From the IMG/VR virus record IMGVR_UViG_3300017963_000189: a stretch of 64,000 nucleotides of DNA. The stretch is one strand, 5' to 3'. This document shows, one piece after another, positions 1 to 64,000 of the stretch. This DNA comes from a virus. Taxonomy: Duplodnaviria; Caudoviricetes. The stretch's first letter is position 1; each line of letters starts with the position of its first letter. Position numbers and translations under genes: made by a program. Under the pieces are notes generated by a model. That model was not told the DNA's origin and did no database searches. It saw nothing but the letters and a program-made list of their open reading frames with translations.

Positions 1-192
1 ATCATCAAATCGCTGGAACGCTTTTCGGTACTCGTGTACTCGATTCCCAAAACTAAACTCGCCCATGTTTTGACCTAAAATATGTAAATCTAATCCAAAC
101 TTCTCACAACTTTCTAATAATGATCCACCAGCTAATTTTCCGACATATGTATGAATAGGCTCAGTTTCTACTGAACATACGTGTAACTTCAT
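1..192 (-). CDS. N-terminal fragment (runs off the window) of a putative PLOD/procollagen-type glycosyltransferase domain protein
   Basis: Translated by hand, not in the ORF track. The ATG at 192 overlaps the TGA of the upstream gene (ATGA). It reads MKLHVCSVETEPIHTYVGKLAGGSLLESCEKFGLDLHILGQNMGEFSFGNRVHEYRKAFQRFDD with no stop, resembling the N-terminus of PLOD-type GT-A domains. The DxD motif would lie outside the window. Confidence 0.45.
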   Translation of the reverse strand, partial: MKLHVCSVETEPIHTYVGKLAGGSLLESCEKFGLDLHILGQNMGEFSFGNRVHEYRKAFQRFDD

Positions 193-533
193 ATAATTTC
201 CTTTGGAATTAATATAGATTTTTCCTTAGTCTTTACATAGATTTGTGAAACCACATTTAAAACTGATCTCATACCCATTTTGTTTGTCTCGTAAATCAAA
301 ACATTTTCTTTCAGGGACGCTTCCTGAATGTCTTGTGGATAATCCTTCATACATGGTATAATGATAACAAGAGTTTTGTTGTATATTTTTAATAGATTAG
401 CAATATTCGTAAAGAAAGTGTCGCCCTTGTTTCCAAAGGCGACAAACCTCTCACAATCCTTGTTCTCTACAATAAACTTGTCTAACTCTCGATTCACATA
501 ACTTATTTCTTCATAATCAAAAAACTTTTTCAT
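189..533 (-). CDS. hypothetical protein
   Basis: 114-aa ORF in series with its neighbours; GAGAG RBS; TATTTGTA variant of the promoter-like motif upstream. Confidence 0.7.
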   Translation of the reverse strand: MKKFFDYEEISYVNRELDKFIVENKDCERFVAFGNKGDTFFTNIANLLKIYNKTLVIIIPCMKDYPQDIQEASLKENVLIYETNKMGMRSVLNVVSQIYVKTKEKSILIPKEII

Positions 534-566
534 ACATATTATACTCTCTCAATACAAATAAGTTCC

Positions 567-1052
567 CTAATTTCCTGTTGAACCAAATCCACCTGCACCT
601 CTGTCAGTATCGTCTAATTCGTCAACTTCCACTATTGTTGGCGTCACAACAGGACAAATAACCATTTGCGCAATCCTATCACCTTTTTTAAATTTAAAAT
701 CTATTGTTGATTCATTTCTAAGAATTACTTTTATCTCTCCACGATAATCATTGTCTACCGTTCCCGGTGTATTTACTATCGTTATTGATCGTTTAGCAGC
801 TAAACCACTTCTCGGGCGAATTTGTGCTTCCCACGTAATTTTTTGTCTAAAATCTACTCCAAGTTCATAAGGATATACATTTGTCTCTAAAGGTTTCGGT
901 AATTGAATAGCAATACCGGTTCTAACCATTGATTGATCATTTGGATATACAATTCCATCCTCAAGAGCATATAAATCCATTCCAGAATCAGTAGGATTTG
1001 ATCTTGTTGGTATAATAGCATCTTCGTGTAACTTCTTAATTTTCAGTTTCAT
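567..1052 (-). CDS. dut: trimeric dUTPase
   Basis: All five motifs present: SGMDL, RPRSG, GTVDNDYRG, RIAQMV, RGAGGFGSTG. Confidence 0.97.
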   Translation of the reverse strand: MKLKIKKLHEDAIIPTRSNPTDSGMDLYALEDGIVYPNDQSMVRTGIAIQLPKPLETNVYPYELGVDFRQKITWEAQIRPRSGLAAKRSITIVNTPGTVDNDYRGEIKVILRNESTIDFKFKKGDRIAQMVICPVVTPTIVEVDELDDTDRGAGGFGSTGN

Positions 1053-3078
1053 TTTCCACTCCTACTTTTATTTCTTCAATTTCAGTTGTCAACTCACAAA
1101 CATCATTGTTACAAAATTTATCAACTACTGCTTCGTGTTGTTCTACATTTGTAAAATCAAGTTTCTTTACTTTCTTTAGTTTCTCCTTATAATCTTCCTC
1201 ACTAATTTCTTCGTAAGGCATTTGTGGATATGAACCACCATTGATTTTAGGTAAAAATGATATACCCTTGAGTTGATATTGAAAAAAGTTCAACGCATTA
1301 GCTATATTTTTTCCCTCTTTATCAGGATCAAATGTTATCGTACAACTTACTTGATTGTCTGCCCAATGTCTCTGCATAAAGGCAGCTAACGAAAGTTGTT
1401 CCCACATTGAAACCTCATTTATAGTCCGTATTCCCTCTCCAACATCAACAGGAAAATCGACCACTAATGAACTTGGATCACCAAATGCTTCTTCTATGTT
1501 ATATTTTGCTCTTTTCAATGGTTTTACTAATTTTGAGTTTTTTGCCAATCTCATTCGACGAATATAAAATCTCGATTCCGGATAATGTACTCCAGGTGTC
1601 GCTCCAGCTAACAGGGAAACTGTACCACTCGGTTTTACACTCGTTGTTTTTACTGATTTAGGGATTGCTAACCATTCACTATAAATTGTATCATAATCTT
1701 GTATTGTATTATATCCCGTTTCTAACCATTGGCGAAGTGTCTCAATACCATTCTTTGTAATAAATTGAGCAACTCCACTCACTGAACAACCAATACGACG
1801 ATTCCTTAACATTACTCGATTTGTTTCCGGCCAATGTGTTTGTCCAAGTGTTACTGTTTTACTATAAAGGTAGGCGTATTTGAGTGTCTTGAGATAATCT
1901 TCGAGGCTTTCGTGTCTCATTGGAAATGTTTCTACTAAGTTACATAACTCATATGATTCTAATGATTGTTCTACACAAGGATTTACACCTTTGGCACGAA
2001 AATCCTTGTTGTCCATTCCATTCTTTATTCGTGAATACCCTTGTATATTCTCTAACCATACATATCCAGGTTCTCCGTTATGCCAGGTTCTATCAGCTGC
2101 TTTCGTGTAATCCATTCCTAATGTAGCATAAATACTATTGTTCGATGTCCAACCATATTCCGCACGTTCAGGATTTATATCATAATTTTTTAGATTCAAG
2201 TATTCTTCATCATCAGCTTCGCCAATCGCAATCTCAGCGGTTCGGCGTACATTTCCTGCTACTACCGCTTTTCCAATGAAGTTCATTATATCAACTATCG
2301 CTCGTACCGTTATCGGCTTACCGACGAGTGGTTCTAAAACTTCTCGTATATTGTAATGTAATTTTACTAATGGATCAGGTCCTGACGAAACTCCACCGAA
2401 GCCACGAATAGGCTCCCCAGGTCCTCTAACTAATGAAAAATCAAACAAGATGTCAGGTTGTCCAGTAAAATAAGCGTCTATCAACTTCCCAACACTCTCT
2501 ACCCAACCCTCTCTTGTATCAGGTATTACAAATGTCTCAAAATCCTTTTCTTTATTTATACCCTTTATAACAATTTCGCCAGAACCCTTAGTGTCAAATC
2601 CAACTCCCACACCAAGCATACTGGCGTCCATCAAAAATGTAAATGGTTTCGATAAATCGTGTTTCAAATCCTCAGTTGAAACAAAAGCGCAGTTATTTAA
2701 CGCAGCAAATAACCCTTTTTCTTCCGTGATAGGCGTTCCCATCGCCCATAAACCTCTACCCGGCGGTAGAAATTTCATGTTGTACATTCGATCAAACATT
2801 TCTTTTGCTGAAGCTTGTGCTTTCCACTCATTCCAATATAAACGATTTCCCATGATCCACTTTTTCTGCATATTGTATGCTCCATTGACCACTCGGGCAA
2901 CAGTCTCCCACCATTGCTCGTTTGTTCCATCGTCTTTTATCCGGGAATAAGTGCGCATATATACAAGATAACCCAAACCATTGAAACCAAATGGCGGGAT
3001 TTCATCTTTATATTTTTCAAGGAAAGCTTCAGACAGTGAGAAAGGCTTAAAATCATCCAAATATCTGTCTGTAGGCAT
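1036..3078 (-). CDS. nrdJ: class II adenosylcobalamin-dependent ribonucleoside-triphosphate reductase (monomeric RTPR type)
   Basis: Motifs FLPPGRGLW, NNCAF, NPCVE, ELCNL, TTSVKPSGTVSLLAG and C-terminal FCNNDVC; AAGGAG RBS; no NrdB nearby. Confidence 0.95.
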   Translation of the reverse strand: MPTDRYLDDFKPFSLSEAFLEKYKDEIPPFGFNGLGYLVYMRTYSRIKDDGTNEQWWETVARVVNGAYNMQKKWIMGNRLYWNEWKAQASAKEMFDRMYNMKFLPPGRGLWAMGTPITEEKGLFAALNNCAFVSTEDLKHDLSKPFTFLMDASMLGVGVGFDTKGSGEIVIKGINKEKDFETFVIPDTREGWVESVGKLIDAYFTGQPDILFDFSLVRGPGEPIRGFGGVSSGPDPLVKLHYNIREVLEPLVGKPITVRAIVDIMNFIGKAVVAGNVRRTAEIAIGEADDEEYLNLKNYDINPERAEYGWTSNNSIYATLGMDYTKAADRTWHNGEPGYVWLENIQGYSRIKNGMDNKDFRAKGVNPCVEQSLESYELCNLVETFPMRHESLEDYLKTLKYAYLYSKTVTLGQTHWPETNRVMLRNRRIGCSVSGVAQFITKNGIETLRQWLETGYNTIQDYDTIYSEWLAIPKSVKTTSVKPSGTVSLLAGATPGVHYPESRFYIRRMRLAKNSKLVKPLKRAKYNIEEAFGDPSSLVVDFPVDVGEGIRTINEVSMWEQLSLAAFMQRHWADNQVSCTITFDPDKEGKNIANALNFFQYQLKGISFLPKINGGSYPQMPYEEISEEDYKEKLKKVKKLDFTNVEQHEAVVDKFCNNDVCELTTEIEEIKVGVENETEN

Positions 3079-3174
3079 ACGTAGTTCTCCTTTAACATTA
3101 ACTTTTCCGTGTGAATTTCTGTAAACTGTTTGAGGCTTTTATGATGTGTAGTAAATTTTTCTCAACCTCGCTTA

Positions 3175-3182
3175 TATAAATA
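3175..3182 (-). promoter_or_regulatory. TATTTATA promoter-like motif upstream of nrdJ
   Basis: One of 13 intergenic copies seen, all in the same orientation relative to the downstream minus-strand gene. Confidence 0.6.
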
Positions 3183-3263
3183 TAGACGAAATTAAAAAAC
3201 ACATATAAAGAATTATACTATTTTGCTAAAGGAAAGTTCCCTAATCGGTAGGTATTTTATTAA

Positions 3264-3842
3264 TTATTTAAATAATTTTTCCCAATCTTTTTTTAACTCT
3301 AACTTATATTTATCTAATAACTTAGATGAAATACTATTAATGCAATATCCCTTTCTTTGTGGATTTTCTAATTCATCAACAGGAATTAAAGAAAAATTCC
3401 AATTATTTATATTTTTACGAACTTCTTTTTTATCTCGTCCTTTATAGTGAATTAACGTAACCAAAACCGCATCAAATTCATCAATACTATATGGAGTATA
3501 ACCATTAAGTGAATTATTTACATTTTTATCAGAATTTCTCCTTGTATTTTCAAAACAAATTTGTCTTGAGTACGGAGTTTTACCATCAACTTGTCTCAAC
3601 TTACTTTGGATTTTTTTATATTTGAGATTTGTATATATATCAAAACCTGCACCATTACCATCATCATTTATAACATCACTTACAACATTATTTCCTAAAT
3701 AATATTTTATCAAATCACATTGAATATACTCATTTGCTTCTGCAACAGTTTTTCCCCATTCTCTAAGACATTTTCTCAATACAAATCCATTTTCAATAAA
3801 ATCTCTAACATCCTTATCAGTTATAATACTATTATCTAACAA
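3264..3842 (-). CDS. putative restriction-endonuclease-like PD-(D/E)XK nuclease
   Basis: GAGFDIY...KIQSKLRQ fits a D...(Q/E)xK nuclease core. Start moved from 3878 to the in-frame TTG at 3842, which follows a GGAGAG RBS; the 3878 TTG lies inside a terminator hairpin. Confidence 0.5.
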   Translation of the reverse strand: MLDNSIITDKDVRDFIENGFVLRKCLREWGKTVAEANEYIQCDLIKYYLGNNVVSDVINDDGNGAGFDIYTNLKYKKIQSKLRQVDGKTPYSRQICFENTRRNSDKNVNNSLNGYTPYSIDEFDAVLVTLIHYKGRDKKEVRKNINNWNFSLIPVDELENPQRKGYCINSISSKLLDKYKLELKKDWEKLFK

Positions 3843-3863
3843 ATTTCTCTCCAATCTTTTAAT

Positions 3864-3895
3864 AAAAAACCCATTCAATATTGAATGGGCTTTTT
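3864..3895 (-). terminator. intrinsic terminator (probably bidirectional)
   Basis: CCCATTCAA-TA-TTGAATGGG stem with A/T runs on both sides. Confidence 0.8.
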
Positions 3896-3904
3896 AATTT
3901 TTTA

Positions 3905-4276
3905 TTAGAACCAACGCATCAACGAAATCCGGCGATTGGCAGATTCCTTGTGACCTACAAAACGAGTTGTATGACCACCATCAAAACGTCTCTTTAAAGA
4001 CATTTTTTCGAAACCACTAATCATAGCAGCAAGAGTGAATAACTTTTTTAGTGTCGCCTTACGTCTTTCAATACGACCGGGATCAAGAATGGAAACAATA
4101 TCTTCCAACATCTTGACGTTGGCTTCGGCGTTCCGGCGACCACACTCAGGACAATTATATGCTTTCGCACGTCCTACCATTACACCTATTGCGAAATGTT
4201 CGCCCTTTTCTATGCTAAAGGGAACGGTCACTTTATGACCACATTTGTATTCTACATCAACCATTGTTTTTGACAT
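3905..4276 (-). CDS. early hypothetical protein with putative Zn-binding motif
   Basis: CGH...CPEC motif; directly downstream of the sigma70-type promoter at 4309-4337. Confidence 0.7.
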   Translation of the reverse strand: MSKTMVDVEYKCGHKVTVPFSIEKGEHFAIGVMVGRAKAYNCPECGRRNAEANVKMLEDIVSILDPGRIERRKATLKKLFTLAAMISGFEKMSLKRRFDGGHTTRFVGHKESANRRISLMRWF

Positions 4277-4308
4277 CTTATAACCTCTTTCTTTATTTAC
4301 GTTACTTA

Positions 4309-4337
4309 AATATACGAAATAAAAGCATTCTTGTCAA
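4309..4337 (-). promoter_or_regulatory. sigma70-type early promoter
   Basis: TTGACA-N17-TATATT preceded by an A-rich AAAAACAG element. Confidence 0.85.
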
Positions 4338-4354
4338 CTGTTTTTTTACTTTTT

Positions 4355-4558
4355 TTATCGCTGACCAAATCTTTTATCATCTATCCACATAACTAAAGTA
4401 TCTTCCGTAGGATATAACATAACCTTTAATCCCGCATCCATCACTTTATCAATAATCGCTGTTCGTTTGCGTTTCGTGTATTCAAATTCTTCTTGATGTT
4501 TATATCCAAGAACGTGTTCCCAATTCGAATACCAATACGCTACCATAATTTTTTTCAT
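4355..4558 (-). CDS. small early hypothetical protein
   Basis: 67 aa; overlaps the stop of the upstream ORF. Confidence 0.7.
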   Translation of the reverse strand: MKKIMVAYWYSNWEHVLGYKHQEEFEYTKRKRTAIIDKVMDAGLKVMLYPTEDTLVMWIDDKRFGQR

Positions 4559-4776
4559 GATTCTCTCCTATCAATATTCCATACCAAACCGGATAAAGTG
4601 TTCGAAGAATCCCAATAATGAAATCCACCACCTTTAACCGTCCACCAGGGATAAGTCATACCGGGTTGTTTATTGATCCAATATTTCTTACCATTTAGAT
4701 TATACTCATAACGACCACCGCGGTGGCGAATAAGTTCACCTTTGTATTCATAGTCACGAATATATTTTTTCATCAA
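4555..4776 (-). CDS. small early hypothetical protein
   Basis: 73 aa, aromatic-rich; coupled overlaps on both sides. Confidence 0.7.
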   Translation of the reverse strand: MMKKYIRDYEYKGELIRHRGGRYEYNLNGKKYWINKQPGMTYPWWTVKGGGFHYWDSSNTLSGLVWNIDRRES

Positions 4777-5039
4777 CTGTACCTCGCTACTAATTTACCA
4801 TTGTAATAAACTTCGCGGGTAAAAAGAATCGGTGTCCAACCCAATTCTTTGCGACGCGCGTCAGCGTGAGCAATCTTCCACGCTTTTGTGAAAAGAGTAT
4901 TAGTAACAACTTCAAAGCCACTATTATACTTGTGACCACCTGGTGCAAAAGTATCAGCTTCTGCCCATTGAATCTTGACAGTCCAAGTACCACGAACTGA
5001 AAACTTTACATCTTTACTTTTGAAATCGTAACGAAACAT
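4773..5039 (-). CDS. small early hypothetical protein
   Basis: 88 aa; AAGGAG RBS; follows the promoter at 5078-5106. Confidence 0.75.
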   Translation of the reverse strand: MFRYDFKSKDVKFSVRGTWTVKIQWAEADTFAPGGHKYNSGFEVVTNTLFTKAWKIAHADARRKELGWTPILFTREVYYNGKLVARYS

Positions 5040-5077
5040 TTTTAACTCCTTTAGTTGTTATCTCAATTAACTACTAT

Positions 5078-5106
5078 AATATACGAAATTCAGATGTATT
5101 TGTCAA
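5078..5106 (-). promoter_or_regulatory. sigma70-type early promoter
   Basis: TTGACA-N17-TATATT with upstream AAAAACCAGAAAACAG. Confidence 0.88.
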
Positions 5107-5134
5107 CTGTTTTCTGGTTTTTCTGGTAAATTTT

Positions 5135-5527
5135 TTATAGGGAAAATCGTAAACTTACGGTGTAACCGCTTCGTTGTAACGTGTTGATGTTTAATATGAC
5201 GGGCGTCCATGATATGATGTTATATACAATTAAAGCTAATCTTCGTTGTCCTACCGATGATGTAAAATTCTTTATTACCATTATTCCGAATGCAGATATG
5301 ATCACTTTCGTGGCGAATAACTGTGTCATACTGGGATGCGAGCCGTATAAAGGATTTACCTCTTTCATCCCATATGTATTTATCGCATGATTTGTTAAGC
5401 CGTAATCTAATACCTGCGCTATTACAAAAGTGGACGCTAACGTATAATCTACGGGCGTCCACTCCAATGAATCTTGACCAAAAATACAAATTGGTATCAA
5501 TAAGAATATTATTAAACGGTGTGCCAT
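5135..5527 (-). CDS. membrane protein, DUF5658-like
   Basis: N-terminal hydrophobic stretch, LDYGLT...GMKEVNP motif and two further hydrophobic helices. Confidence 0.6.
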   Translation of the reverse strand: MAHRLIIFLLIPICIFGQDSLEWTPVDYTLASTFVIAQVLDYGLTNHAINTYGMKEVNPLYGSHPSMTQLFATKVIISAFGIMVIKNFTSSVGQRRLALIVYNIISWTPVILNINTLQRSGYTVSLRFSL

Positions 5528-6468
5528 TCTCTAATCATCCTCTTTACTAATTCTTGTACTTCATTGTATCTCGGACGTTTCGGTAACGCGGTATACTCAA
5601 CAGCATCATGAATCTTAGCTTCAAGTTCCTCAGCGTAATCCAAAACGTATTTCATTTCCCACTTTCCTAACTTCACATCCAAAATAGTTTGACGATAACG
5701 TAAAGGAAATTCGAGGCGTCCGGTGGACAATAATTCTTTTCCCTCTAACATCAATCGAACTAAATGTGATGCAAATTTAGTGTCATATCCATGAGAAGTT
5801 AACAAATCTTTCCTATTGGTAGCTTTAGACAATCTTTCATCAATCATCTTCTTTACTTTCCTCAACATGAAATGTCTTTGGAAATTTAAGTCACCAATAA
5901 GAATGTTGTCGCCTTTAACACTCATAAATGGAAGTTTCTTGTCAAGAATCTCAACTAACAATTTCTTTCCATCTTCAGGAGATTTAATAAATCCATACAA
6001 CCAATCTTGAGCATTCTCAAGGGAATGATAATTGTCAGTGCGAATCACCATCTTGTGTTTTTGACTAAAAGCATATCCAAGAAATTTTTCCTTTAATCCA
6101 CGATGCGGGAACAAATGAGCGTTCCTCAAAAGTTCCTTTCCCCAAAAGTTACTGTAAACTAAGTTTGCTTCGTTAACAAACATTTGTTCCAAAATATTCG
6201 GGTTATTATCCATCGCCAGACGAACAAACTTTCTCAACTCATAAATCACCATATCAACGGCGTTTTCGTCGTTCTTTCCATCGTCCTTTTTAGACTTGAT
6301 ACTCAAATCAACTTCGTCGGCACGTTCGAATCCAAATACCATGTCCTCACTCGGCATGAAAACTCCACTGTAATCAGTGTCACTGGTTGGAGTTGCAGTT
6401 CCATACAACCTTGACCCAACCATATATTCTAAAATCTTATTTTCTTTCGCAACTTCTCTCGCGTTCAT
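5512..6468 (-). CDS. RlaP-like nucleotidyltransferase (Pol beta superfamily)
   Basis: VGSRLYGTATPTSDTDYSGVF (GS...DxD), NPNILE and GYDTKFASHLVRL motifs. Confidence 0.85.
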   Translation of the reverse strand: MNAREVAKENKILEYMVGSRLYGTATPTSDTDYSGVFMPSEDMVFGFERADEVDLSIKSKKDDGKNDENAVDMVIYELRKFVRLAMDNNPNILEQMFVNEANLVYSNFWGKELLRNAHLFPHRGLKEKFLGYAFSQKHKMVIRTDNYHSLENAQDWLYGFIKSPEDGKKLLVEILDKKLPFMSVKGDNILIGDLNFQRHFMLRKVKKMIDERLSKATNRKDLLTSHGYDTKFASHLVRLMLEGKELLSTGRLEFPLRYRQTILDVKLGKWEMKYVLDYAEELEAKIHDAVEYTALPKRPRYNEVQELVKRMIREWHTV

Positions 6469-6653
6469 TTCTTTTCCTTATTCTTAAACTGAAAATGATA
6501 TTCATCTTCACCTTTATCAATCGTATCTATAATCCTTGATAAAAATTGAATGGGAGCAGTAGTTCCACCGGCCCAAGCAAGATTATAAACCGTTACTTCA
6601 CTACGAATATGTTGATATACATCGTCGTCAATTAATAAAGTAATTTTTTTCAA
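6465..6653 (-). CDS. small hypothetical protein (possible ribbon-helix-helix-like N-terminus)
   Basis: TTG start with GGAG RBS behind the promoter at 6678-6706; starts MKKITLLIDDDVYQHI. Confidence 0.65.
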   Translation of the reverse strand: MKKITLLIDDDVYQHIRSEVTVYNLAWAGGTTAPIQFLSRIIDTIDKGEDEYHFQFKNKEKK

Positions 6654-6677
6654 TTAAAACTCCATTTCTTTGATATA

Positions 6678-7800: not shown

Positions 7801-7802
7801 AC

Positions 7803-8702
7803 TTATTTTTCTTTATTTTTCGCTAAATATTTCGGCGAATATCTAAGATAACATTGTGTCGCAGGCAAATCTACACTATAACCCTCACTATCTACTTTTA
7901 TAAGTGCTGGTGTTTCTCTCGATGGATTTTTTGTCAATAAATCATTTATACGAGTAGAAATATGTGTCCATGGCTCAGCATCTGGTTCATATTCCATATG
8001 TTTTCTGTTGACTTCACTCAATAAATCTTTGTAGTGAATTTGTCCATATTCTTCAATGGTTTCTTTGATAAGAGAAACTTGAGAATACTCAGATTTATAT
8101 GTACTCGATCTTAATTCAGTTAAATCATTACTCTCAAACCAATTAAAAATACTAGCATTATTATCTAAATGTTTCATGAAAATTTCATGTAATTCTGGAA
8201 ATGTAAAATAAAATGTAGAATATTCTTTTGCAACCACTAAGGCTTTTTCTTTTATAAAAAGTGTTCCGAGTTCTCCAAAATCCAAACGCTCTTTATAAAC
8301 TTCTTTATCAAGAATACTTTTATATATAACAAGTTGTTCTTTATATAGATCACTACCTATTTTTACTTCTATATAAAAAATTCCATTACCATATTTTTTT
8401 GACTTTATACGTAAAACAATATCAAGACGCCTATCATGTATTTCCTCTCCATCAGACGCATAAATAACTTCTTTTTTAGGTTCTTCTCTACTTACACTAT
8501 ATTCTATTTCATCATCCGAAAAATCATATTTTTTAGTCTTTTCACCTATTAGTGTAATTATTTCATCAGCAACCTTTGGATTATTATTAATATACAAACA
8601 AACTCCACCAGTCACTTTAACCTCTTGACCACCACCAACTATATCTATCCAATATTTTTCTTGATCTTCCATCAGTGGATTTCTATTACAACGAATTTTC
8701 AT
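7803..8702 (-). CDS. PD-(D/E)XK superfamily nuclease with possible C-terminal winged-helix domain
   Basis: RRLDIVL...FYIEVKIGS...EQLVIY; directly behind an early promoter. Confidence 0.7.
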   Translation of the reverse strand: MKIRCNRNPLMEDQEKYWIDIVGGGQEVKVTGGVCLYINNNPKVADEIITLIGEKTKKYDFSDDEIEYSVSREEPKKEVIYASDGEEIHDRRLDIVLRIKSKKYGNGIFYIEVKIGSDLYKEQLVIYKSILDKEVYKERLDFGELGTLFIKEKALVVAKEYSTFYFTFPELHEIFMKHLDNNASIFNWFESNDLTELRSSTYKSEYSQVSLIKETIEEYGQIHYKDLLSEVNRKHMEYEPDAEPWTHISTRINDLLTKNPSRETPALIKVDSEGYSVDLPATQCYLRYSPKYLAKNKEK

Positions 8703-11228: not shown

Positions 11229-12272
11229 CTACTCCTTTGAAGTTTTAGCAAATGTATTTAGTTTATTAAAATTCAGGTTCAACCATGAATCAATGTTTGG
11301 GATGGCACTATAAAGTTTATCTTCCAAGAACAATCTTTTAAGTTGATACCTATTGATTGTACTAACAGGTTCGTCTAAAAGTTCCCTGATTTTAACTTTT
11401 GTTGTACCACTAATTTCTACTTCGCCTAACTTCATTAACTTAAAATTCATCTTTAGTTGTTCTTCGTTTTCCATGATTAATCGGGCGGCTGTGTTCTTTC
11501 CGGGTTGACGATTCGCATACTCCAAAATACTCTCCAATGAAACCTTTTCTTCGTCTAATAATATAGGTAAATGTTTTTGTGCTGTCTTTAATCCTATTCC
11601 CTTTATTCCTGGTATATTATCACTTGAGTCGCCATCTAAAATACGAAAATATATGAGATTCTTTGGCGAAAAATGATAATCTTCCTTGACTGCCTTTTCG
11701 TCGTATAACTTCTTTTTTGTTGGATTCCATACCTTTATCCTATCATCGACAAGTTGTAAAAAATCCTTGTCCGTTGACATTATTACTACTTCCTCTTTCA
11801 ATAACTCCTTTGATACATACGAAATAACATCGTCAGCTTCTATGTTATCATAAATAAACATTTGTAAAGGTAAGTTGTCTAAATAATCTGCTGACCTACT
11901 TATTTGTCTACTCGCTTCGTCAACTTCCTCATCGGGTGTGTGAAAATCGTATGTACGATTTAACCTTACTCGTAAACCTGTTCTATGTGCTTTGTAGTCG
12001 GGATAAATTTTTCGACGGCGAGCTGATCCGCCTTTTCCATCAAATACCACGATACAACGTGTAGGATTTATCGTGCGGATACCAACTGCTATTGTGTTCA
12101 GGAAGCCGACAATACCACCTATATGTGTACCATCGTCATTCATTGCGGGATTTACCGAAAACGCTCTAATGAAATTATTTAAACCATCGATTAATAAAAC
12201 TTTTGAGTTGAGTGATTTGGCGTTTTCGTTTTCTTGTTTAATTTCTTCTAATAGATTATCGATATTAACCAT
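11229..12272 (-). CDS. 5'-3' exonuclease / flap endonuclease (T4 RNase H-like)
   Basis: LIDGLN, VFDG, RRKIYPDYKAHR, EADD, STDKDFLQL, GDSSDNIPGIKGIG. Confidence 0.95.
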   Translation of the reverse strand: MVNIDNLLEEIKQENENAKSLNSKVLLIDGLNNFIRAFSVNPAMNDDGTHIGGIVGFLNTIAVGIRTINPTRCIVVFDGKGGSARRRKIYPDYKAHRTGLRVRLNRTYDFHTPDEEVDEASRQISRSADYLDNLPLQMFIYDNIEADDVISYVSKELLKEEVVIMSTDKDFLQLVDDRIKVWNPTKKKLYDEKAVKEDYHFSPKNLIYFRILDGDSSDNIPGIKGIGLKTAQKHLPILLDEEKVSLESILEYANRQPGKNTAARLIMENEEQLKMNFKLMKLGEVEISGTTKVKIRELLDEPVSTINRYQLKRLFLEDKLYSAIPNIDSWLNLNFNKLNTFAKTSKE

Positions 12273-12288
12273 TTTATTATGTCCTTTA

Positions 12289-12888
12289 TTAGAGTAAAAG
12301 TTTTTTCAAATTTTTATTAAAATGATTGATCAACTTTAAAGAATTTGTCGTATCTCTCCACATAAAATAATGTTCTTCACATCCAGCATACCATTGTGTT
12401 ATTTCTTTTACTCTACATGGATCACGGGTAATATTACCAATAAAAACTGTCCAAAATGGTAAAACATCATTTCCAAGATTACCCTCACTTTTTAATATTT
12501 TTAATAATCCAGGTGTAAAATATTTACATGATCTTTCGTGAGCATTTCCACGACCATCTTGGCGTTTTCCGCCCTCAACCCAACCATCTTGTCGTTTTAC
12601 TTCCACATAAATTGTTTTTTGAGTTTGAGTATTATCAATAGCGTAATCTGGCACGATTCCATGTGTCTCAATCTTTTCTTCTGGAATATAAATTTCTTCT
12701 AATACCTTTTTATCAAGTTCTACATCAACATAAATATTCGTGAATTCTTGCGGACTTTCTCGTATCACAAATTTTGTGTTTTTAAATTCTTGTAAAAAAA
12801 CATTATAAAAATCGTGTTCAGCTATTTTTGCTTTTTTTCCACTATTTTTTTGCCAAGTAGATCTGTTTTTTAATTCTTTTGAGCCCAC
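12289..12888 (-). CDS. munIR: MunI-like type II restriction endonuclease
   Basis: 199 aa, collinear with MunI as recalled: catalytic PD...EVK, EVKRQDGWVEG, recognition motif GRGNAHERSCK, FTPGLL, LPFW, ITRDP, YFMWR. GTG start with AAAGG RBS. Confidence 0.9.
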   Translation of the reverse strand: MGSKELKNRSTWQKNSGKKAKIAEHDFYNVFLQEFKNTKFVIRESPQEFTNIYVDVELDKKVLEEIYIPEEKIETHGIVPDYAIDNTQTQKTIYVEVKRQDGWVEGGKRQDGRGNAHERSCKYFTPGLLKILKSEGNLGNDVLPFWTVFIGNITRDPCRVKEITQWYAGCEEHYFMWRDTTNSLKLINHFNKNLKKLLL

Positions 12889-12898
12889 AAAAACCTTT

Positions 12899-13303
12899 CT
12901 AAGTTGTTTTGTATTTACTCACTATCTTTTGTAAGAAACGAGTTCTGTCGGATAATCTTTTCCAATCATATTCCCAAATAACTTCAATATTGTAACCATT
13001 TTCTTCAGCAGATTTGATTTTCTCTTTATCCTTTTCCCATTTTTCCCAAGCATACCTTTTCTTTACCTTGTCATAAAAATCAGGTGGATAAATGTTTTTG
13101 TTGTAGTGCCACCGATCTCCATTATACTCAATGATTAAATTTAATTCCTTTATGAATATATCATATGGAACGCCATCAAGCATAAATTCATTACGAACCT
13201 TACAGCCGAGTTTTCGAAGTGTCTTAAACACTTCACTGTGACCCTGACTCATTGTCGTTGACCGTCGAACTTTTCTCTTTTTACCACGTTTCTTCTTTTT
13301 CAA
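12899..13303 (-). CDS. DUF559/Vsr-like (very-short-patch family) endonuclease, possibly a free-standing homing endonuclease
   Basis: YDIFIKELNLIIEYNGDRWH...KDKEKIKSAEENGYNIEVIWE; basic N-terminus; TTG start (alternative ATG at Met18). Confidence 0.85.
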   Translation of the reverse strand: MKKKKRGKKRKVRRSTTMSQGHSEVFKTLRKLGCKVRNEFMLDGVPYDIFIKELNLIIEYNGDRWHYNKNIYPPDFYDKVKKRYAWEKWEKDKEKIKSAEENGYNIEVIWEYDWKRLSDRTRFLQKIVSKYKTT

Positions 13304-16227: not shown

Positions 16228-18066
16228 CTATTTCTCCTTGTTTTTCCGTACTCGATGTCTAAATAATAATTTAGGTGTACTTTTCGTCTCCGTTTTTAAA
16301 TCTATTTGTATATATTGATTCTTTTGACCATCGATTTCAATAATTAACTTTGTACCATCAACATTTACTTTTAATGGTTGTTGTGGTTCACAATAATGTT
16401 CAGGTGGATATAAATCTACTTGAGCTGTCTTTTTATTTATTACACTTGTATGTACATCGTTACCACAACCGTGTACTTCTTTCCAAATGTTTTCAAGTTG
16501 ATCTTGACCCTCAGGTGTCTTGGCGAGTTGTTCTAATGATTCTCCCATTTTTTTGGTATACCAAGTTTTTAACTTAGCTTTCCTTTTCATAATCTCTTGA
16601 GCATCCATCGTGTCTACATCCCACTTGTTTTCTTTCCATACTTTCGCCCAATCTTCGTCAAGTTTCTTTCCTGCTTCACCACCAATATAATGTGACCCTG
16701 CATTTCCCGTTCCCGAATTTTTCATTGTTATATTCGATGGATCGGTATAAATCTTAGCAGATATTTTCATCATTTTATCTTTTCCATCTTTATCTTTATA
16801 CATAACAACTAAATCCGTCGGATCAACTTTTTCATCAATACCGTATAAATCCATAAGTTTTTTTGCACCAATACCACCAGTATTTCTAGCATCAGTTATT
16901 GTAGCTCCTTCAGGAAGTGATCCACGAATTTTATCGGCTAACTCTTTGTTTGTCTCATTTGACGCTTTAAGATTTCCACCAAGTTTTTTATATTCTTCAG
17001 TATTATGATCATGTAATTCTTTAGCTTCTTTATAGTTTTGTGAATCTTCAGGTATCAAATCCAACACTACTCCAGATTCATTATATTTTCCGGACATATC
17101 AGCTAATGCTCTATCTGCAGACGAACCACGAATCGGCACCGATATTCCCTCTTTTTTTATCATTTCGTTCATTAATCTTGTTACTACAGTTCCACTATCT
17201 CCGGTCATAGCTTTATAATGAACACCATATTCAGGACCCGCTTGTGGAGTTAAATAAATCTTTTTACCACCAGCATGACCTTCAATAATAATGTAATCGG
17301 CTAATCTATTAAGATTTTCTACTCTTTCTTCGTATGTCTTAGCATTTATAAATCCATCCCATGAGTTAGAAAGAATGTCTATCCTTTTCTTTGTTTCCGG
17401 GTCAGCATCTTTTGTTTTGTCTCTTATCTTATCGAGTTTCGCCTTTTCTTTTTCATAAGCCTTACCCTTGATCACGGGCTCAACTGGAGTTCCCTTTGGT
17501 TCTTCCTCTTTTTCTACGGGCTCGCCCTTTTCGGCTTTGGCGATGTCCTCCGGTGACGCGTCCTTTTTGACTAAAACCTGACCGCGTTTTGGATCGTGTG
17601 ACTTAACCGTGTAAATGTTTCCTGTCTCTTTCTTCTTTACTATGTCATCCTCGTTTATCTCGTCCTCGTCCTCGGTGTCCACATCTAAATAATCTAACTC
17701 TAACATTATTTCTTCGGTGTAAGGTGTGTCTCGTTCTTCCTCGTCTCTATCATCCATTGGTAACTTGTCTTGATCCGCATGATCTTGTGGTTGTATTGGA
17801 TTGATATAAGGTTGCGGTTCTGCTTGATCGGAATGAACGCCATCAAAATCTGTATAAATACCAACTTGATCTATTTTATTTGGATTCTTTTTCACAGGGA
17901 TTCTGAGATTGTTCATTGTCTTTTCTATTAATTCATATGACATCCCTTTTTCTTCAAAAATCTCTCGTAATATTATTAAATGATCGTTGTTTTTCAAATC
18001 AGGCAAACCATTTGATACTCGATATGATAATTCTTTAATAACTTCCTCTATAAACTCTTTGTTCAT
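16228..18066 (-). CDS. large protein, probably virion-associated, with possible nuclease-like C-terminal domain
   Basis: N-terminal ELSYRVSNGLPDLKN segment, acidic linker, C-terminal PTDLVV...ISAK; preceded by a TATTTATA motif and GGAG RBS. Confidence 0.6.
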   Translation of the reverse strand: MNKEFIEEVIKELSYRVSNGLPDLKNNDHLIILREIFEEKGMSYELIEKTMNNLRIPVKKNPNKIDQVGIYTDFDGVHSDQAEPQPYINPIQPQDHADQDKLPMDDRDEEERDTPYTEEIMLELDYLDVDTEDEDEINEDDIVKKKETGNIYTVKSHDPKRGQVLVKKDASPEDIAKAEKGEPVEKEEEPKGTPVEPVIKGKAYEKEKAKLDKIRDKTKDADPETKKRIDILSNSWDGFINAKTYEERVENLNRLADYIIIEGHAGGKKIYLTPQAGPEYGVHYKAMTGDSGTVVTRLMNEMIKKEGISVPIRGSSADRALADMSGKYNESGVVLDLIPEDSQNYKEAKELHDHNTEEYKKLGGNLKASNETNKELADKIRGSLPEGATITDARNTGGIGAKKLMDLYGIDEKVDPTDLVVMYKDKDGKDKMMKISAKIYTDPSNITMKNSGTGNAGSHYIGGEAGKKLDEDWAKVWKENKWDVDTMDAQEIMKRKAKLKTWYTKKMGESLEQLAKTPEGQDQLENIWKEVHGCGNDVHTSVINKKTAQVDLYPPEHYCEPQQPLKVNVDGTKLIIEIDGQKNQYIQIDLKTETKSTPKLLFRHRVRKNKEK

Positions 18067-59402: not shown

Positions 59403-59462
59403 CTGCCTTTCTCCTAAATGCTATATAGCTGTTTTCGTTGTTGTGGTATATACCACGTCGAA

Positions 59463-59470
59463 TATAAATA
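59463..59470 (-). promoter_or_regulatory. TATTTATA promoter-like motif upstream of the giant fibre
   Basis: Intergenic exact copy in TTTC-TTATATATTTATA context. Confidence 0.6.
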
Positions 59471-59487
59471 TATAAGAAATGAAAAAG

Positions 59488-62400
59488 TTAGAACGTTCCA
59501 CCATCTACGGAGAGATACCCAAATGAACCCGTTACAGTAACATCGAAACTACCGGTCACCTTTACATTACTATTACGAGAAATACTTCCATCACCTTCAA
59601 TAGTCCAAACAGCAGAACCAGTCTCAATGTTTGTAAGTTTTTGAGCAACAGAAGCACTAAAATCACTAACATCTATATTTTCAACTAAACCTTCATAATT
59701 ACTTGCGGATATTTCATTCCAAACGTGTAAGTCGGCTCCAGGTGTAGTTGTACCAATACCTACTCGATCATAATTTATTGTAGTAAAAGTTTTTTGAGAA
59801 CTAAATGCGGCATATTCAAAATCATTACCATCGTTACCATATGTAAAAAGAAATCCACTACCAGAATTAAATTCCTCAACTAAAACTTGACCAATGTTAT
59901 CGCCACTATCTATGGCTCTAAAATATGATTCACTTGTTACAACATTGAGATTAGTATCAACTATGTTGTATGCTACATCAGTTACTCCAGTCCCATCATT
60001 CCAATAACTAAAACCGGTAAGGATGTCGCCATTTTCTAATTGTACTACGTCACCATAATCCCAATACCATTCATCATCATCCGTTACTTTTCCAGTTCTT
60101 TTTTGAATTAATATACTTCCAGTTGGATCAATGATAGCGGCGTACCATTCGTCCCGTGTATCATATTCTAATGCGTATGATAATACTACATTTCCATTTG
60201 TTAAGCTTGTCGCCGTTAAGTTGTATAAATACCAACCCTCAGGATCCACACGAGAATCAACGGCTGTTCTTTCTTTTACTACACTTCCTGTTGGATCAAT
60301 TATTTTATAATAATACTCAGGACTATTGTAATAAATAAGTATAACATTACCATTATTAAATGTAACAGGATAATGTTTAGTGGTTGAATTATATGTATCT
60401 ATTATGGATTTTGTTACATAGCATTCACTTGGAGTTGAACCACTTGTATTGATAATAGCATACTCAGTTCGGGCACCCAATCCACCTTCAGTGTTTTGAT
60501 ATAAAAGTAAAATATTACCATCATTTAATAATGTGCTTCCGAGCGCGTTTGAACGGGAAGGCGACCATTGAACTGTCTTTAAAATCGTTCCATTTGAATC
60601 TATTTGTACATATTTTGAATCTCGTAATGCTCCACCACCAGAATATTGATTCCAATAAAATATATGCGCTTTACTTCCGGATACAATTATATCTTGATAA
60701 TCTGCTTGAGCACTTGCAGTAAAAGTTAATATCGAAGATGATAAACTTCCAGTAGCATCAAATATACAATATTGTCCACTCGCATTATTATGTTCCCATG
60801 AATGTATTATTTTCCCATCAGAAAATTTTCCAATAGCATGATGTGAATAAAATGTCGATGTTTGTACAAGTGATTGTGTCGTTATATTATTAACATAACT
60901 CGTATCAAATGGAGTGAATAACATTCTATCAGTATCACCGTAAAACTCACTTACATCTACTCCATCTACGGTGTCACCGTCTCTAAACTTGAGATTACCA
61001 CTTATTTGTACTTCACTATAACGAGAAATGGACATACTGTCATATGAACCAGTCCAAAATGAATCTCCAAGACTTGCACTTGCACTCGTTCCACTTGTAC
61101 CACTCGTACCATCATTTCCAGGTAATCCATCCGTACCACTCGTACCAGATGTTCCATCAGACCCACCACTTCTACGTTTGAACTCACCACTACCAGAATC
61201 CCAAACTAAGAAATCACTTAATCCTTGATCTATACTCGCAGAAGCAAAAAACGCGGACGCTGTTACGTCTCCAACCGCATGAATTCCAAAACTCGCTGAA
61301 ATTGAACCAGTTATATTTAATCCATAAAGTTGACCAATTCCATCTGAATTATTTATCCACCATTTTTTACCAGTTCCTAAATTTCTACCACCAATTTGAC
61401 GACCTGTTAAATATGTTGCTTCAGTTTCGCTTGTAAGAATATCTAAATAAGTTATCGCGATTCCACTTGCAGATTTTAAATGAGTACCTGCAACCGCTTG
61501 ATTAAAATTAATAATTATATCTTCTCTTTGTGTCGGAATGGTAAATCCCAATGGATCAGATTGAGATATTGCAAGTATATCAATTAAAGCTCCACTCACA
61601 ATTAAACTTCCTGATATATTTACTTGACCAAAACGTTCAATATGACCATCACCAAATGAACCAGTCCAAAGTCCACCAATACCTGGCGCAACAGTTTGAG
61701 CAAATGATGCTGTTATAGAAGTCAATGCATGACTTGATGTAATAGATGTGTCCGCAAACGATGAACTTATTGTCCATTCAGCAAATGAAGATGATAATGT
61801 ATTGTCAGCAAATGATGAACTTATTGACCACTCAGCATGTGATGCTGTCGGTGTACTTTCCGCAAACGATGAACTAATTGACCAATTAGCATGTGATGCG
61901 GTTGGTGTACTTTCGGCGAACGATGAACTTATTGACCATAATGTTGAACTCGCAGATACAGCTTGACTTGAACTTTCAACCCAACTTGCAGTTCCATATA
62001 ATCTATTATCAGATCCACTGAGATATAAACTACCACTTATCTTTACATTACTATCTCTACTTATCGTTCCATCGTCATTGAGTGTCCATAATGTAGATCC
62101 TGTTTGTAAATTATTTATTTGTGTCGCCACACTTGACGAAAATTCAGAAATATCCACTCCATCAACTGTATCTAAATCTCGTAAAACAATATTTCCCGAT
62201 ACAATTAATCCTTGAAATGTACCTATTCCTGTATAATTAGAAATATTAAATTTTGTTGTTGTTACTGACAAACCATAATCATAAAGTGTTCCAACAATAC
62301 CTGAATCATCTATCACAATTTGATATTCGGTATCAATAAATTCATCTCTGTAATCTTTATAAATTGTTCCACGCGGATAAATCGTAGTTGAATATGTGTT

Positions 62401-63651
62401 AACTCCACTTGATGATTGAGCCAAAATATAATCGTTAAATATTATTGGAACATTTATCTGCGAGAATCCATTACCTTCAGCAACATAAAATGATCCAGAA
62501 ACAATTACATCACCTACTCTTTCAATATGACCATCAGCAAATGAACCAGTCCACAATCCACCTTCACCGGCATTTAAAGCATAAGATGCTGTTATGGCCG
62601 TTGACGCTTGACTTGATGATATAGCGGTATCAGCAAATGATGAACTAATTGACCAATCACTATATGAAGATGATAAAGAATTTTCAGCAAATGAAGCACT
62701 TATAGAACGATCACTATATGATGAACTTTCAGCCCAACTTGCAGTTCCATACATCCTATTATCAGATCCACTTATATAAAAACTACCACTAACTTTTACG
62801 TCACCAAATCTCTCAATATGACCGTCAATACTTGATGTCCAATATGTATTAAGAGCATAAGATGCGGTAGTAGCATATGATGAACTTATAGCCCAATCAG
62901 CATGACTTGCAGAACTTATCGTTCCAAGAACAACACTTGCTGTTTGAGAATAACTTGAACTTTCAGCCCAACTCGCAGTACCATATACTCTATTATCCGA
63001 TCCACTAATATATAAACTTCCACTAATTTTTACGTCACCATAATGAGATATTGAACCATCCGCACTCGATGTCCATTGTGAAATTGTTCCACTAATAGAA
63101 CTACTTGGAATGGCTCCAGGATCAGCAAGAGTTAATCCCGTATATTTATATACCGTTACACTATATGGAGTTGGATAAGAACCACTCGCAGCATCAGCAA
63201 CGTGAAGAACACCCGTCTTGTAATCAAATATCCAACTTATCGCATCAGTTTTGAAAATTTGACTTCCTGAAGCATCATAAAGTTTTACTTCATACGATGA
63301 ACCATATTTATCACTTATAAAGTCGCCAATGAAATAACTCTGGGATGCTTCGTTGACCAACCAACCACTATTTATTGAGTCAGTTCCTGGTGTAAATCCA
63401 CTACCAGAAATAAAATAAAAGGCTTGATCGTTGAATGTTGGATCGGCAGTTAACGTGAATTGTTCGTAATATTCAGCATATCCGGATGTGATAGCAGACG
63501 CGGAATCCGTAGGAATAGTATTCATCCACACTTCGCGCATATGTGTGTTGATCGTATCTTTCCCTATCTCTTGAAAGAAATTCCTGTCAGGAGTCGTAAA
63601 TCTTTTATTAATTAAAGTCTTAAATGACTTGTCAGTTTTATTTAAAGCCAC
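59488..63651 (-). CDS. large tail fibre / structural protein (1387 aa) with Ser-rich repeats and a propeller-like domain
   Basis: TASWAESSSYS and SSSFA repeats, WTGS..GHIER linkers, GTSG tract; GTG start with GGAG RBS. Confidence 0.75.
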   Translation of the reverse strand: MALNKTDKSFKTLINKRFTTPDRNFFQEIGKDTINTHMREVWMNTIPTDSASAITSGYAEYYEQFTLTADPTFNDQAFYFISGSGFTPGTDSINSGWLVNEASQSYFIGDFISDKYGSSYEVKLYDASGSQIFKTDAISWIFDYKTGVLHVADAASGSYPTPYSVTVYKYTGLTLADPGAIPSSSISGTISQWTSSADGSISHYGDVKISGSLYISGSDNRVYGTASWAESSSYSQTASVVLGTISSASHADWAISSSYATTASYALNTYWTSSIDGHIERFGDVKVSGSFYISGSDNRMYGTASWAESSSYSDRSISASFAENSLSSSYSDWSISSSFADTAISSSQASTAITASYALNAGEGGLWTGSFADGHIERVGDVIVSGSFYVAEGNGFSQINVPIIFNDYILAQSSSGVNTYSTTIYPRGTIYKDYRDEFIDTEYQIVIDDSGIVGTLYDYGLSVTTTKFNISNYTGIGTFQGLIVSGNIVLRDLDTVDGVDISEFSSSVATQINNLQTGSTLWTLNDDGTISRDSNVKISGSLYLSGSDNRLYGTASWVESSSQAVSASSTLWSISSSFAESTPTASHANWSISSSFAESTPTASHAEWSISSSFADNTLSSSFAEWTISSSFADTSITSSHALTSITASFAQTVAPGIGGLWTGSFGDGHIERFGQVNISGSLIVSGALIDILAISQSDPLGFTIPTQREDIIINFNQAVAGTHLKSASGIAITYLDILTSETEATYLTGRQIGGRNLGTGKKWWINNSDGIGQLYGLNITGSISASFGIHAVGDVTASAFFASASIDQGLSDFLVWDSGSGEFKRRSGGSDGTSGTSGTDGLPGNDGTSGTSGTSASASLGDSFWTGSYDSMSISRYSEVQISGNLKFRDGDTVDGVDVSEFYGDTDRMLFTPFDTSYVNNITTQSLVQTSTFYSHHAIGKFSDGKIIHSWEHNNASGQYCIFDATGSLSSSILTFTASAQADYQDIIVSGSKAHIFYWNQYSGGGALRDSKYVQIDSNGTILKTVQWSPSRSNALGSTLLNDGNILLLYQNTEGGLGARTEYAIINTSGSTPSECYVTKSIIDTYNSTTKHYPVTFNNGNVILIYYNSPEYYYKIIDPTGSVVKERTAVDSRVDPEGWYLYNLTATSLTNGNVVLSYALEYDTRDEWYAAIIDPTGSILIQKRTGKVTDDDEWYWDYGDVVQLENGDILTGFSYWNDGTGVTDVAYNIVDTNLNVVTSESYFRAIDSGDNIGQVLVEEFNSGSGFLFTYGNDGNDFEYAAFSSQKTFTTINYDRVGIGTTTPGADLHVWNEISASNYEGLVENIDVSDFSASVAQKLTNIETGSAVWTIEGDGSISRNSNVKVTGSFDVTVTGSFGYLSVDGGTF
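61745..61940 (-). repeat. tandem 54-nt (18-aa) and related Ser-rich repeats
   Basis: SSSFAESTPTASHANWSI / SSSFAESTPTASHAEWSI / SSSFADNTL. Confidence 0.85.
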
Positions 63652-63664
63652 TTACTTATCTCCA

Positions 63665-64000
63665 TTATCCATTATCAAATGTCACGGTTAATTGTGTCAA
63701 ATAATCCGTATTCGATGTATCATTAAATCTTACCATTAAAACTAATGGATTACTATTCGTTGTTTGTTTACCACTTGGCAATCCCCACGTTATAGTATCT
63801 CCACTTACCGCACCATTCCTTATTCCATATATACTACCACTGTCGTCGCCAACCTCGCGTCCTAAATCATAAATACTCGACCCACTTTCGTTGGCGAGAA
63901 CGAAAGCCATTTGTAAATCATCACTGCCAGACCAAACACCTACTATGTCACTCAATCCACTAAAACCATTCCTCGCAATTACTATCGTTCCATTCTCGTT
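63665..64000 (-). CDS. C-terminal fragment of a structural protein (5' end outside the window)
   Basis: Frame stays open from the track's TTG at 63955 to the window edge (NENGTIVIARNGFSG...). Confidence 0.7.
   Translation of the reverse strand, partial: NENGTIVIARNGFSGLSDIVGVWSGSDDLQMAFVLANESGSSIYDLGREVGDDSGSIYGIRNGAVSGDTITWGLPSGKQTTNSNPLVLMVRFNDTSNTDYLTQLTVTFDNG

What the first reader, a model, noticed from the sequence alone, without database searches (positions are those of the whole stretch)
1..64000. Selective absence of further 6-bp palindromes (GATATC, CTTAAG, ACATGT)
Seen by eye: dozens of GATAT followed by A/G/T but none by C; no CTTAAG or ACATGT; GAATTC looks scarce. CATATG, GTTAAC, TGTACA, TGATCA, ATCGAT and GATC are readily found, so avoidance is selective. 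Inference: these mark specificities of the phage's other orphan nucleases (3264, 7803, 12899, possibly 16228) or of host restriction systems. The genome may reveal its own nuclease targets.
Basis: partly seen in the sequence, partly recalled or inferred. Interest (0 to 1): 0.6.

Follow-up and report, generated by a model that had tools for sequence, protein, structure and literature searches.

The report
Restriction-site avoidance in a jumbo phage
This large uncultured marine phage has eliminated a specific set of short palindromic DNA words (GATATC, ACATGT, CTTAAG and others) from its genome, which is the long-known way phages escape bacterial restriction enzymes; I found no evidence that these three words are targets of the phage's own nucleases.

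Summary
The window has no GATATC, CTTAAG or ACATGT. The 168-kb record that holds it has 0, 1 and 0, against 40, 27 and 27 expected from synonymous-codon shuffles, and the words are missing in every codon phase. One-letter neighbours such as GATATG and CATATG are at or above expectation. The GAATTC scarcity is weak (34 vs 45).

These three words are the extreme end of a wider pattern. CAATTG, GGTACC and GTCGAC are also at zero, CTAG is 9 vs 197, and 19 of 51 testable palindromic hexamers have O/E below 0.25. Related marine phages each lack a different set (GATC, TTTAAA, CGCG, TTATAA). That is the pattern expected from host Type II restriction.

An intact MunI-like gene sits in a 646-bp insertion and has no methylase, whereas 24 of 24 other homologues have one.

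For the three words here it finds no support:
- There is no EcoRV-family gene.
- ORF 3264 folds like the homing endonuclease I-Ssp6803I.
- ORF 12899 is shared with a relative that keeps the sites.
- ORF 16228 has no sequence-level nuclease signal.
- ORF 7803 is an untestable singleton.

Verdict: a strong new example of a known phenomenon.

The parts
1..64000 (.). Whole window (= G000:C1:41798-105797) with no GATATC, CTTAAG, ACATGT or CAATTG; CTAG 9 vs 92 expected
12289..12888 (-). Solitary MunI-family Type IIP restriction endonuclease gene (predicted target CAATTG). It is the only avoided word with a matching phage gene.
   Evidence: PF11407 E 2e-71. 55% identical over the full length to MunI, PDB 1d02, with PD..EVK and RGNAHER kept. 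No MT-A70 or other DNA methyltransferase in the 168-kb record.
12267..12911 (.). About 646-bp insertion carrying the MunI-like gene, relative to the nearest relative L002, where the Vsr-like gene abuts the 5'-3' exonuclease gene
3264..3878 (-). PD-(D/E)XK nuclease (invariant D, QxK) with an I-Ssp6803I-like fold, next to nrdJ. Most likely a free-standing homing-type endonuclease, not a 6-bp restriction enzyme.
   Evidence: 91 remote homologues. Model pLDDT 89.6. I-Ssp6803I Z 10.3, EcoRV Z 5.5. NhoI and I-Ssp6803I are the top Foldseek matches. Weak PF11645 hits in 9 of 60 homologues.
7803..8702 (-). Orphan 299-aa ORF with an LD..EVK motif (PD-(D/E)XK-like). It is a singleton with 28.9% GC and carries one of the 9 CTAG (8152) and one of the 4 CCATGG (7968) in the record. 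Specificity unknown.
   Evidence: The AF2 model is unusable.
12899..13303 (-). Small Vsr/DUF559-like nuclease gene, conserved (72% identity) in relative L002, which keeps GATATC, CAATTG and ACATGT sites
16228..18066 (-). 612-aa ORF. The C-terminal 380 aa are shared with relatives L036, L038, L046 and L062. A restriction-enzyme-like fold is suggested only by Atlas leads.
12859..12864 (.). One of only three AGATCT sites of the record, inside the MunI-like gene; suggests the insertion has not yet been purged of avoided words

Best explanation
[quoted passage not shown] Every site lost lowers the chance that unmethylated incoming phage DNA is cut.

Shown: the depletion acts on the DNA itself, in all codon phases; it is confined to exact uninterrupted palindromes; it covers about 20 words; and it is lineage-specific among relatives. 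No DNA methyltransferase of five families was detected in the 168 kb held.

Inferred: the selecting enzymes are host enzymes of EcoRV, PciI and AflII type. The host is unknown.

The same site-free state allows the phage to carry a MunI-like restriction enzyme without a methylase, because its target CAATTG is also absent. That link is specific to CAATTG and does not extend to the three words of this finding.
For: 1. Zero or near-zero counts against every null used: Markov orders 0 to 4 and synonymous-codon shuffles. The words are absent in all three codon phases.
2. Only the exact palindrome is missing. In the record, GATATA is 77/67, GATATG 52/27, CATATC 119/117, CCATGT 80/55 and CAATTA 82/62 (observed/expected).
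3. Depletion across palindromes is broad. The 51 testable palindromic hexamers have median O/E 0.55, against 0.95 for 3,490 non-palindromes (Mann-Whitney P = 4e-11); 37% vs 5% have O/E < 0.25. No interrupted palindrome is eliminated.
4. Relatives have other avoided sets. G001 and G002: TTTAAA 0/199 and 0/133, CGCG 0, GATC 79/383 and 18/226. G003: TTATAA 15/100. Of 54 related loci of 12 kb or more, 47 have at least one strongly depleted palindrome, GATC in 33. None carries a homologue of ORF 3264 or 7803.
5. The nearest relative L002 (76-84% nucleotide identity) keeps 3 GATATC, 4 CAATTG and 1 ACATGT in 11 kb. At the orthologous positions that align, this phage has point changes.
6. No DNA methyltransferase of PF01555, PF02086, PF02384, PF00145 or PF05063 is present, so avoidance rather than self-methylation is the visible counter-measure.
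7. This matches the published pattern: avoidance mostly concerns orthodox Type II sites in non-temperate dsDNA phages (PMC6286503).
Against: The host is unknown, so no cognate host enzyme for GATATC, ACATGT or CTTAAG has been shown. The same genome does hold one proven case of a phage-borne nuclease whose site is absent (MunI-like, CAATTG). GATATC avoidance is uncommon among relatives (2 of 35 testable loci). The three words are at or near absolute zero, as CAATTG is. ORF 7803 remains an uncharacterised PD-(D/E)XK-like singleton. Only 168 kb of a genome of at least 309 kb could be read.
Confidence: 0.8

Rival explanations
1. At least one of GATATC, ACATGT or CTTAAG is the target of a phage-encoded solitary nuclease (ORF 7803 or 16228). 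The nuclease would be used against host or competitor DNA, and the phage would be immune because it has no sites, as with MunI and CAATTG.
For: Precedent in the same genome. The MunI-like gene is intact, lacks the MT-A70 partner found beside 24 of 24 other homologues, and CAATTG is 0 vs 63 here but depleted in 0 of 51 relatives. ORF 7803 has a D..EVK motif and PD-(D/E)XK leads, low GC, and residual avoided words typical of a recent arrival. The counts of the three words are zero or nearly zero.
Against: There is no EcoRV-family gene. ORF 3264 is homing-endonuclease-like. ORF 12899 is shared with L002, which keeps the sites. Homologues of the ORF 16228 C-terminal part occur in L062, which has GATATC sites. 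About 20 words are depleted, far more than the candidate genes. Relatives without these genes also show zero-count words.
Confidence: 0.12
2. The absences are a by-product of base composition, codon usage, codon-pair bias or mutation bias, with no selection on the words themselves.
For: The genome is AT-rich with strong strand skew. TTAA and CATG are generally depleted, which lowers the expectation for CTTAAG and ACATGT. Some palindromes are shifted by codon-pair preference, for example ACCGGT and CTGCAG, which are over-represented in a single codon phase.
Against: Zero counts persist under Markov order 4 and under synonymous-codon shuffles (0 of 300 shuffles as low). The words are absent in all codon phases, and their one-letter neighbours are at or above expectation. 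A relative of similar composition keeps the words.
Confidence: 0.02

Closest known systems
Restriction-site (palindrome) avoidance in phage genomes, as surveyed by Rusinov et al. 2018 (PMC6286503)
   Same: Complete or near-complete loss of short uninterrupted palindromes of the orthodox Type II kind in a large dsDNA phage. The loss is selective and lineage-specific, and no own methylase is seen.
   Different: The host and its enzymes are unknown here. The number of depleted words (about 20, five of them at zero in 168 kb) is large. One avoided word matches a restriction enzyme carried by the phage itself.
Solitary restriction endonuclease tolerated because the genome has no sites (PacI in Pseudomonas alcaligenes, as discussed in Ershova et al. 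2012, PMC3488263); solitary REases in phages counted by Oliveira et al. 2014 (PMC4176335)
   Same: The MunI-like gene has no methylase and the record has no CAATTG.
   Different: This applies to CAATTG only. For GATATC, ACATGT and CTTAAG no matching phage gene was found. PacI has an 8-bp AT-only site in a bacterium, whereas here a 6-bp site expected about 63 times was removed from a phage.
I-Ssp6803I, a PD-(D/E)XK homing endonuclease (PDB 2ost)
   Same: The ORF 3264 model matches it best (Z 10.3, 130 residues aligned). D and QxK are conserved. The gene stands free beside a ribonucleotide reductase gene.
   Different: 18% sequence identity. The phage's own sequence gives no Pfam hit. No intron or target site was identified.

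Membership tests
Phage restriction-site avoidance | Word count significantly below a composition- and codon-aware expectation | tested here: met
   Record: GATATC 0 vs 39.8, ACATGT 0 vs 27.2, CTTAAG 1 vs 27.0. Window: 0 of 300 shuffles reach zero.
Phage restriction-site avoidance | Avoided words are short palindromes of the orthodox Type II kind, and avoidance is selective | tested here: met
   Palindromes have median O/E 0.55 vs 0.95 for non-palindromes. GTTAAC, ATCGAT, TGTACA and GATC are at expectation. One-letter neighbours are not depleted.
Phage restriction-site avoidance | Avoided set differs between related phages, tracking the host's R-M repertoire | tested here: met
   Whole records G001-G003 and 54 related loci show different avoided sets.
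Phage restriction-site avoidance | Host encodes R-M systems that recognise the avoided words | not testable with these tools
   Host unknown. The only hints are that 11 of 23 bacterial carriers of close MunI homologues are Bacteroidota, plus earlier unchecked notes.
Solitary nuclease with a site-free genome (own-nuclease reading) for GATATC, ACATGT, CTTAAG | Phage gene homologous to an enzyme of that specificity | tested here: not met
   No match to PF09233 (EcoRV family) in six frames of the record. ORFs 3264, 7803 and 16228 have no Pfam, NCBIfam or PDB sequence match to any restriction enzyme. There are no models for PciI or AflII families to test against.
Solitary nuclease with a site-free genome (own-nuclease reading) for GATATC, ACATGT, CTTAAG | Presence of the gene and absence of the word go together across relatives | tested here: inconclusive
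   ORFs 3264 and 7803 have no homologues in about 190 loci. ORF 12899 is present in L002, which keeps the words.
MunI family Type IIP restriction endonuclease (PF11407), ORF 12289-12888 | Family profile match, catalytic PD..ExK and RGNAHER recognition motif | tested here: met
   240 bits against a cut-off of 25. Alignment to PDB 1d02.
MunI R-M system (enzyme plus MT-A70 methylase) | Adjacent cognate methyltransferase | tested here: not met
   Present beside 23 of 23 bacterial homologues and the one viral homologue, absent from the 168-kb record. The rest of the genome was not readable.
I-Ssp6803I-like PD-(D/E)XK endonucleases (PF11645), ORF 3264-3878 | Fold and catalytic residues | tested here: met
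   Z 10.3, rmsd 3.4, 130 residues aligned. D68, Q79 and K81 are invariant or nearly so.
I-Ssp6803I-like PD-(D/E)XK endonucleases (PF11645), ORF 3264-3878 | Pfam profile match | tested here: inconclusive
   The phage's own protein gives no hit. 9 of 60 homologues give weak hits, best E 2e-4.

The most novel reading that the evidence does not exclude
The phage carries several methylase-less, sequence-specific nucleases: MunI-like plus ORF 7803 and/or ORF 16228. It is immune to all of them only because their sites (CAATTG plus GATATC, ACATGT or another zero-count word) have been removed from its genome. In that case its list of zero-count words would read out the specificities of a self-compatible nuclease set used to destroy host or rival-phage DNA.
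Probability: 0.12. Interest if true: 0.75.

Novelty: new member of a known kind. Interest (0 to 1): 0.35.

Why it matters
The list of avoided words acts as a fingerprint of the restriction enzymes this uncultured phage has faced: types such as EcoRV, PciI, AflII, KpnI, SalI, BglII and ScaI, plus a CTAG cutter. It could help assign a host once methylomes or R-M annotations of candidate marine bacteria are available. It also narrows the possible targets of any solitary nuclease the phage carries to a handful of zero-count words, which makes the specificity of ORF 7803 easy to test. The phenomenon itself is well known, so the value lies in the example rather than in a new principle.

Tried and rejected
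- **ORFs 3264, 7803 and 16228.** Pfam, NCBIfam, PHROGs and PDB sequence searches named no restriction enzyme. A PDB profile search and Pfam scan of the ORF 16228 C-terminal part gave nothing.
- **ORF 7803.** The word-based search of 5.8 billion proteins returned only the protein itself. The single-sequence AlphaFold model had pLDDT 33 and was discarded.
- **Relatives of the candidate ORFs.** IMG/VR scans for ORFs 7803 and 3264 found nothing.
- **Closer relatives of the phage.** A megablast of 4 kb against GenBank phages gave no match. The tail-sheath search found only relatives at 50% identity or less.
- An exact-match search to extend the record in metagenome contigs found nothing. 'Relatives' cannot be drawn for a virus record.
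- **Literature.** Searches for a phage MunI or a methylase-less phage restriction enzyme combined with site avoidance found no direct precedent.
- **Rejected idea.** Degenerate sites RCATGY or ACRYGT cannot explain ACATGT, because GCATGT (18/21) and ACGTGT (30/19) are present.
Full report
**What the window is.** The window is bases 41,798-105,797 of a 168,383-bp IMG/VR phage record. The record is 34.6% G+C, and 162 of 169 called genes lie on the minus strand. It encodes the class II ribonucleotide reductase NrdJ, dUTPase, a DnaB-like helicase, a 5'-3' exonuclease, RecA, a gp32-like protein, a family A polymerase, tail sheath and baseplate proteins. The same proteins occur on a contig of 309,378 bp, so the record is only part of a jumbo phage. 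The closest isolates are Microcystis phage Mel-JY01 (about 48% identity in sheath and RecA) and Flavobacterium phage immuto.

**Observation.** The by-eye counts are exact. There is no GATATC, CTTAAG or ACATGT in 64 kb. GATAT occurs 82 times and is never followed by C. The 'control' palindromes are present.

Synonymous-codon shuffles keep every protein sequence and each gene's codon usage. Against them the window should hold 16.1, 8.4 and 13.6 copies of the three words, and 0 of 300 shuffles reached zero. In the whole record the counts are 0, 1 and 0 against 39.8, 27.0 and 27.2. Markov models up to order 4 agree, with CTTAAG the weakest case.

The words are missing in every codon phase in which they are expected. 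GATATC, for example, is expected 19.2, 9.9 and 11.7 times in the three phases. Codon-pair bias therefore cannot be the cause. Only the exact palindrome is missing, while its one-letter neighbours are at or above expectation. GAATTC is only mildly low: 7 vs 14 in the window and 34 vs 45 in the record.

**The wider pattern.** The three words are the extreme end of a continuum.
- CAATTG (0 vs 63), GGTACC (0 vs 19.5) and GTCGAC (0 vs 10) are also at zero.
- CTAG is 9 vs 197, AGATCT 3 vs 31, AGTACT 6 vs 34, GGATCC 4 vs 20 and CCATGG 4 vs 19.
- Among 51 palindromic hexamers with expectation of at least 8, the median O/E is 0.55, against 0.95 for 3,490 non-palindromes (P = 4e-11). Nineteen have O/E below 0.25.
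- No interrupted palindrome is eliminated.

This profile, uninterrupted palindromes in a large dsDNA phage, is the one reported for avoidance of orthodox Type II sites (PMC6286503).

**Relatives.** RecA and tail-sheath searches brought in about 160 related marine phage loci. Three large relatives were read whole. Each has its own avoided set:
- G001 and G002 have no TTTAAA (0/199 and 0/133) and no CGCG, with strongly reduced GATC, AGATCT and CCATGG.
- G003 is depleted in TTATAA and CCATGG.
- None of the three avoids CAATTG, ACATGT or CTTAAG, although G001 and G002 are partly depleted in GATATC (10/45 and 8/26).

Of 54 loci of 12 kb or more, 47 have at least one strongly depleted palindrome (mean 4.3). 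GATC is the commonest (33 of 54). CAATTG is depleted in 0 of 51 and GATATC in 2 of 35.

The nearest relative, L002, is 76-84% identical at the nucleotide level. It keeps 3 GATATC, 4 CAATTG and 1 ACATGT in 11 kb. At the orthologous positions that align, this phage has one to three base changes that destroy the site. The avoided set therefore evolves quickly and by lineage, as expected if it tracks host restriction repertoires.

**The phage's own nucleases.**
- **ORF 12289-12888** is an intact MunI-family enzyme: PF11407 at E = 2e-71, and 55% identical to MunI (PDB 1d02) with PD..EVK and RGNAHER kept. It lies in a 646-bp insertion that L002 lacks. All 23 bacterial homologues and the one other viral homologue have an adjacent MT-A70 methyltransferase. 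This record has none, nor any match to four other DNA methyltransferase families. For CAATTG, then, the phage does carry a methylase-less enzyme whose site it lacks. A bacterial precedent is PacI (PMC3488263). Which came first, the loss of sites or the gene, is not settled. The gene still holds one of only three AGATCT sites in the record, which hints at a recent arrival.
- **GATATC.** No EcoRV-family gene exists in the record.
- **ORF 3264** has 91 remote homologues and gives a confident model (pLDDT 89.6). Its best structural match is the homing endonuclease I-Ssp6803I (Z 10.3), while EcoRV scores only Z 5.5. It sits next to nrdJ. It is best read as a homing-type nuclease.
- **ORF 12899** is a Vsr/DUF559-like nuclease shared with L002, which keeps the sites.
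- **ORF 16228** has no sequence-level nuclease signal. Only Atlas leads point to a HaeIII/MspI-like fold in its C-terminal part. Homologues of that part occur in relatives that have GATATC sites.
- **ORF 7803** has an LD..EVK motif and weak PD-(D/E)XK leads but no homologue anywhere. Its model was unusable, so its specificity cannot be inferred.

**Conclusion.** The best-supported explanation (about 0.8) is ordinary restriction-site avoidance driven by host Type II systems. The number of depleted words and the behaviour of relatives that lack the candidate genes argue against phage nucleases as the general cause. About 0.12 remains for one of the three words being the target of ORF 7803 or 16228. 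This is cheap to test in vitro, because a methylase-less enzyme must have a target among the few zero-count words.

**Limits.** The host is unknown.

Noticed in passing
window 8152, 16886, 25822, 36511, 37127, 41005, 48295, 55004, 57823: All nine CTAG sites left in the 168-kb record lie inside this 50-kb stretch, and all are in the context GCTAGW on one strand or the other. About 39% would be expected in a GCTAG context. The rest of the record has none.
   Followed up: partly
whole record (window included): Five non-palindromic words are depleted in both orientations against the codon-aware null. On the coding strand: GAAGAG 8/76, GATGAG 3/61, GAGATG 9/78, GATGAC 7/48, GAAGAC 9/54. In the other orientation the sum is 15 vs about 59. 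GAAGAG and GAAGAC are the EarI and BbsI sites (my own knowledge), so Type IIS-like pressure is possible. Codon-context effects are not excluded.
   Followed up: partly
whole record: GGAGG on the coding strand (CCTCC on the + strand) is 15 vs 177 expected, and related Shine-Dalgarno-like hexamers are similarly low. This suggests avoidance of internal ribosome-binding-like sites and a host that uses Shine-Dalgarno pairing.
   Followed up: no
G001 (IMGVR_UViG_3300030060_007423) and G002 (IMGVR_UViG_3300030330_006019), loci L088-L102: These two large relatives have no TTTAAA at all (0 vs 199 and 0 vs 133 expected) and no CGCG. That is as striking as the absences in the window and involves different words.
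   Followed up: partly
window 12267-12911; L188-L210; L001:10001-11292: The MunI-like gene is a clean 646-bp insertion between the Vsr-like and exonuclease genes. All 24 other homologues examined sit next to a 60-83% conserved MT-A70 methyltransferase, which this phage lacks.
   Followed up: yes
window 3264-3878 and 1036-3078: An I-Ssp6803I-like PD-(D/E)XK nuclease gene of very low G+C (25%) lies directly upstream of nrdJ. The arrangement recalls free-standing homing endonucleases beside phage ribonucleotide reductase genes (my own knowledge).
   Followed up: partly
window 16228-18066 vs L002:1938-4134: Only the first 79 residues or so of the 612-aa ORF are conserved in the nearest relative. 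The remaining 1.7 kb is replaced by unrelated sequence there, yet it is shared at 35-40% identity with more distant relatives. This looks like a mosaic, swapped domain.
   Followed up: no
whole record: ACCGGT (56 vs 24), CTGCAG (33 vs 16) and TGATCA (88 vs 59) are over-represented, each almost entirely in one codon phase (43 of 56, 32 of 33 and 65 of 88). These are codon-pair preferences, not repeats.
   Followed up: yes
L001:8136-9086: The viral contig that carries the complete MunI-type R-M pair also encodes an Mrr_cat restriction-endonuclease-domain protein 1 kb upstream.
   Followed up: no
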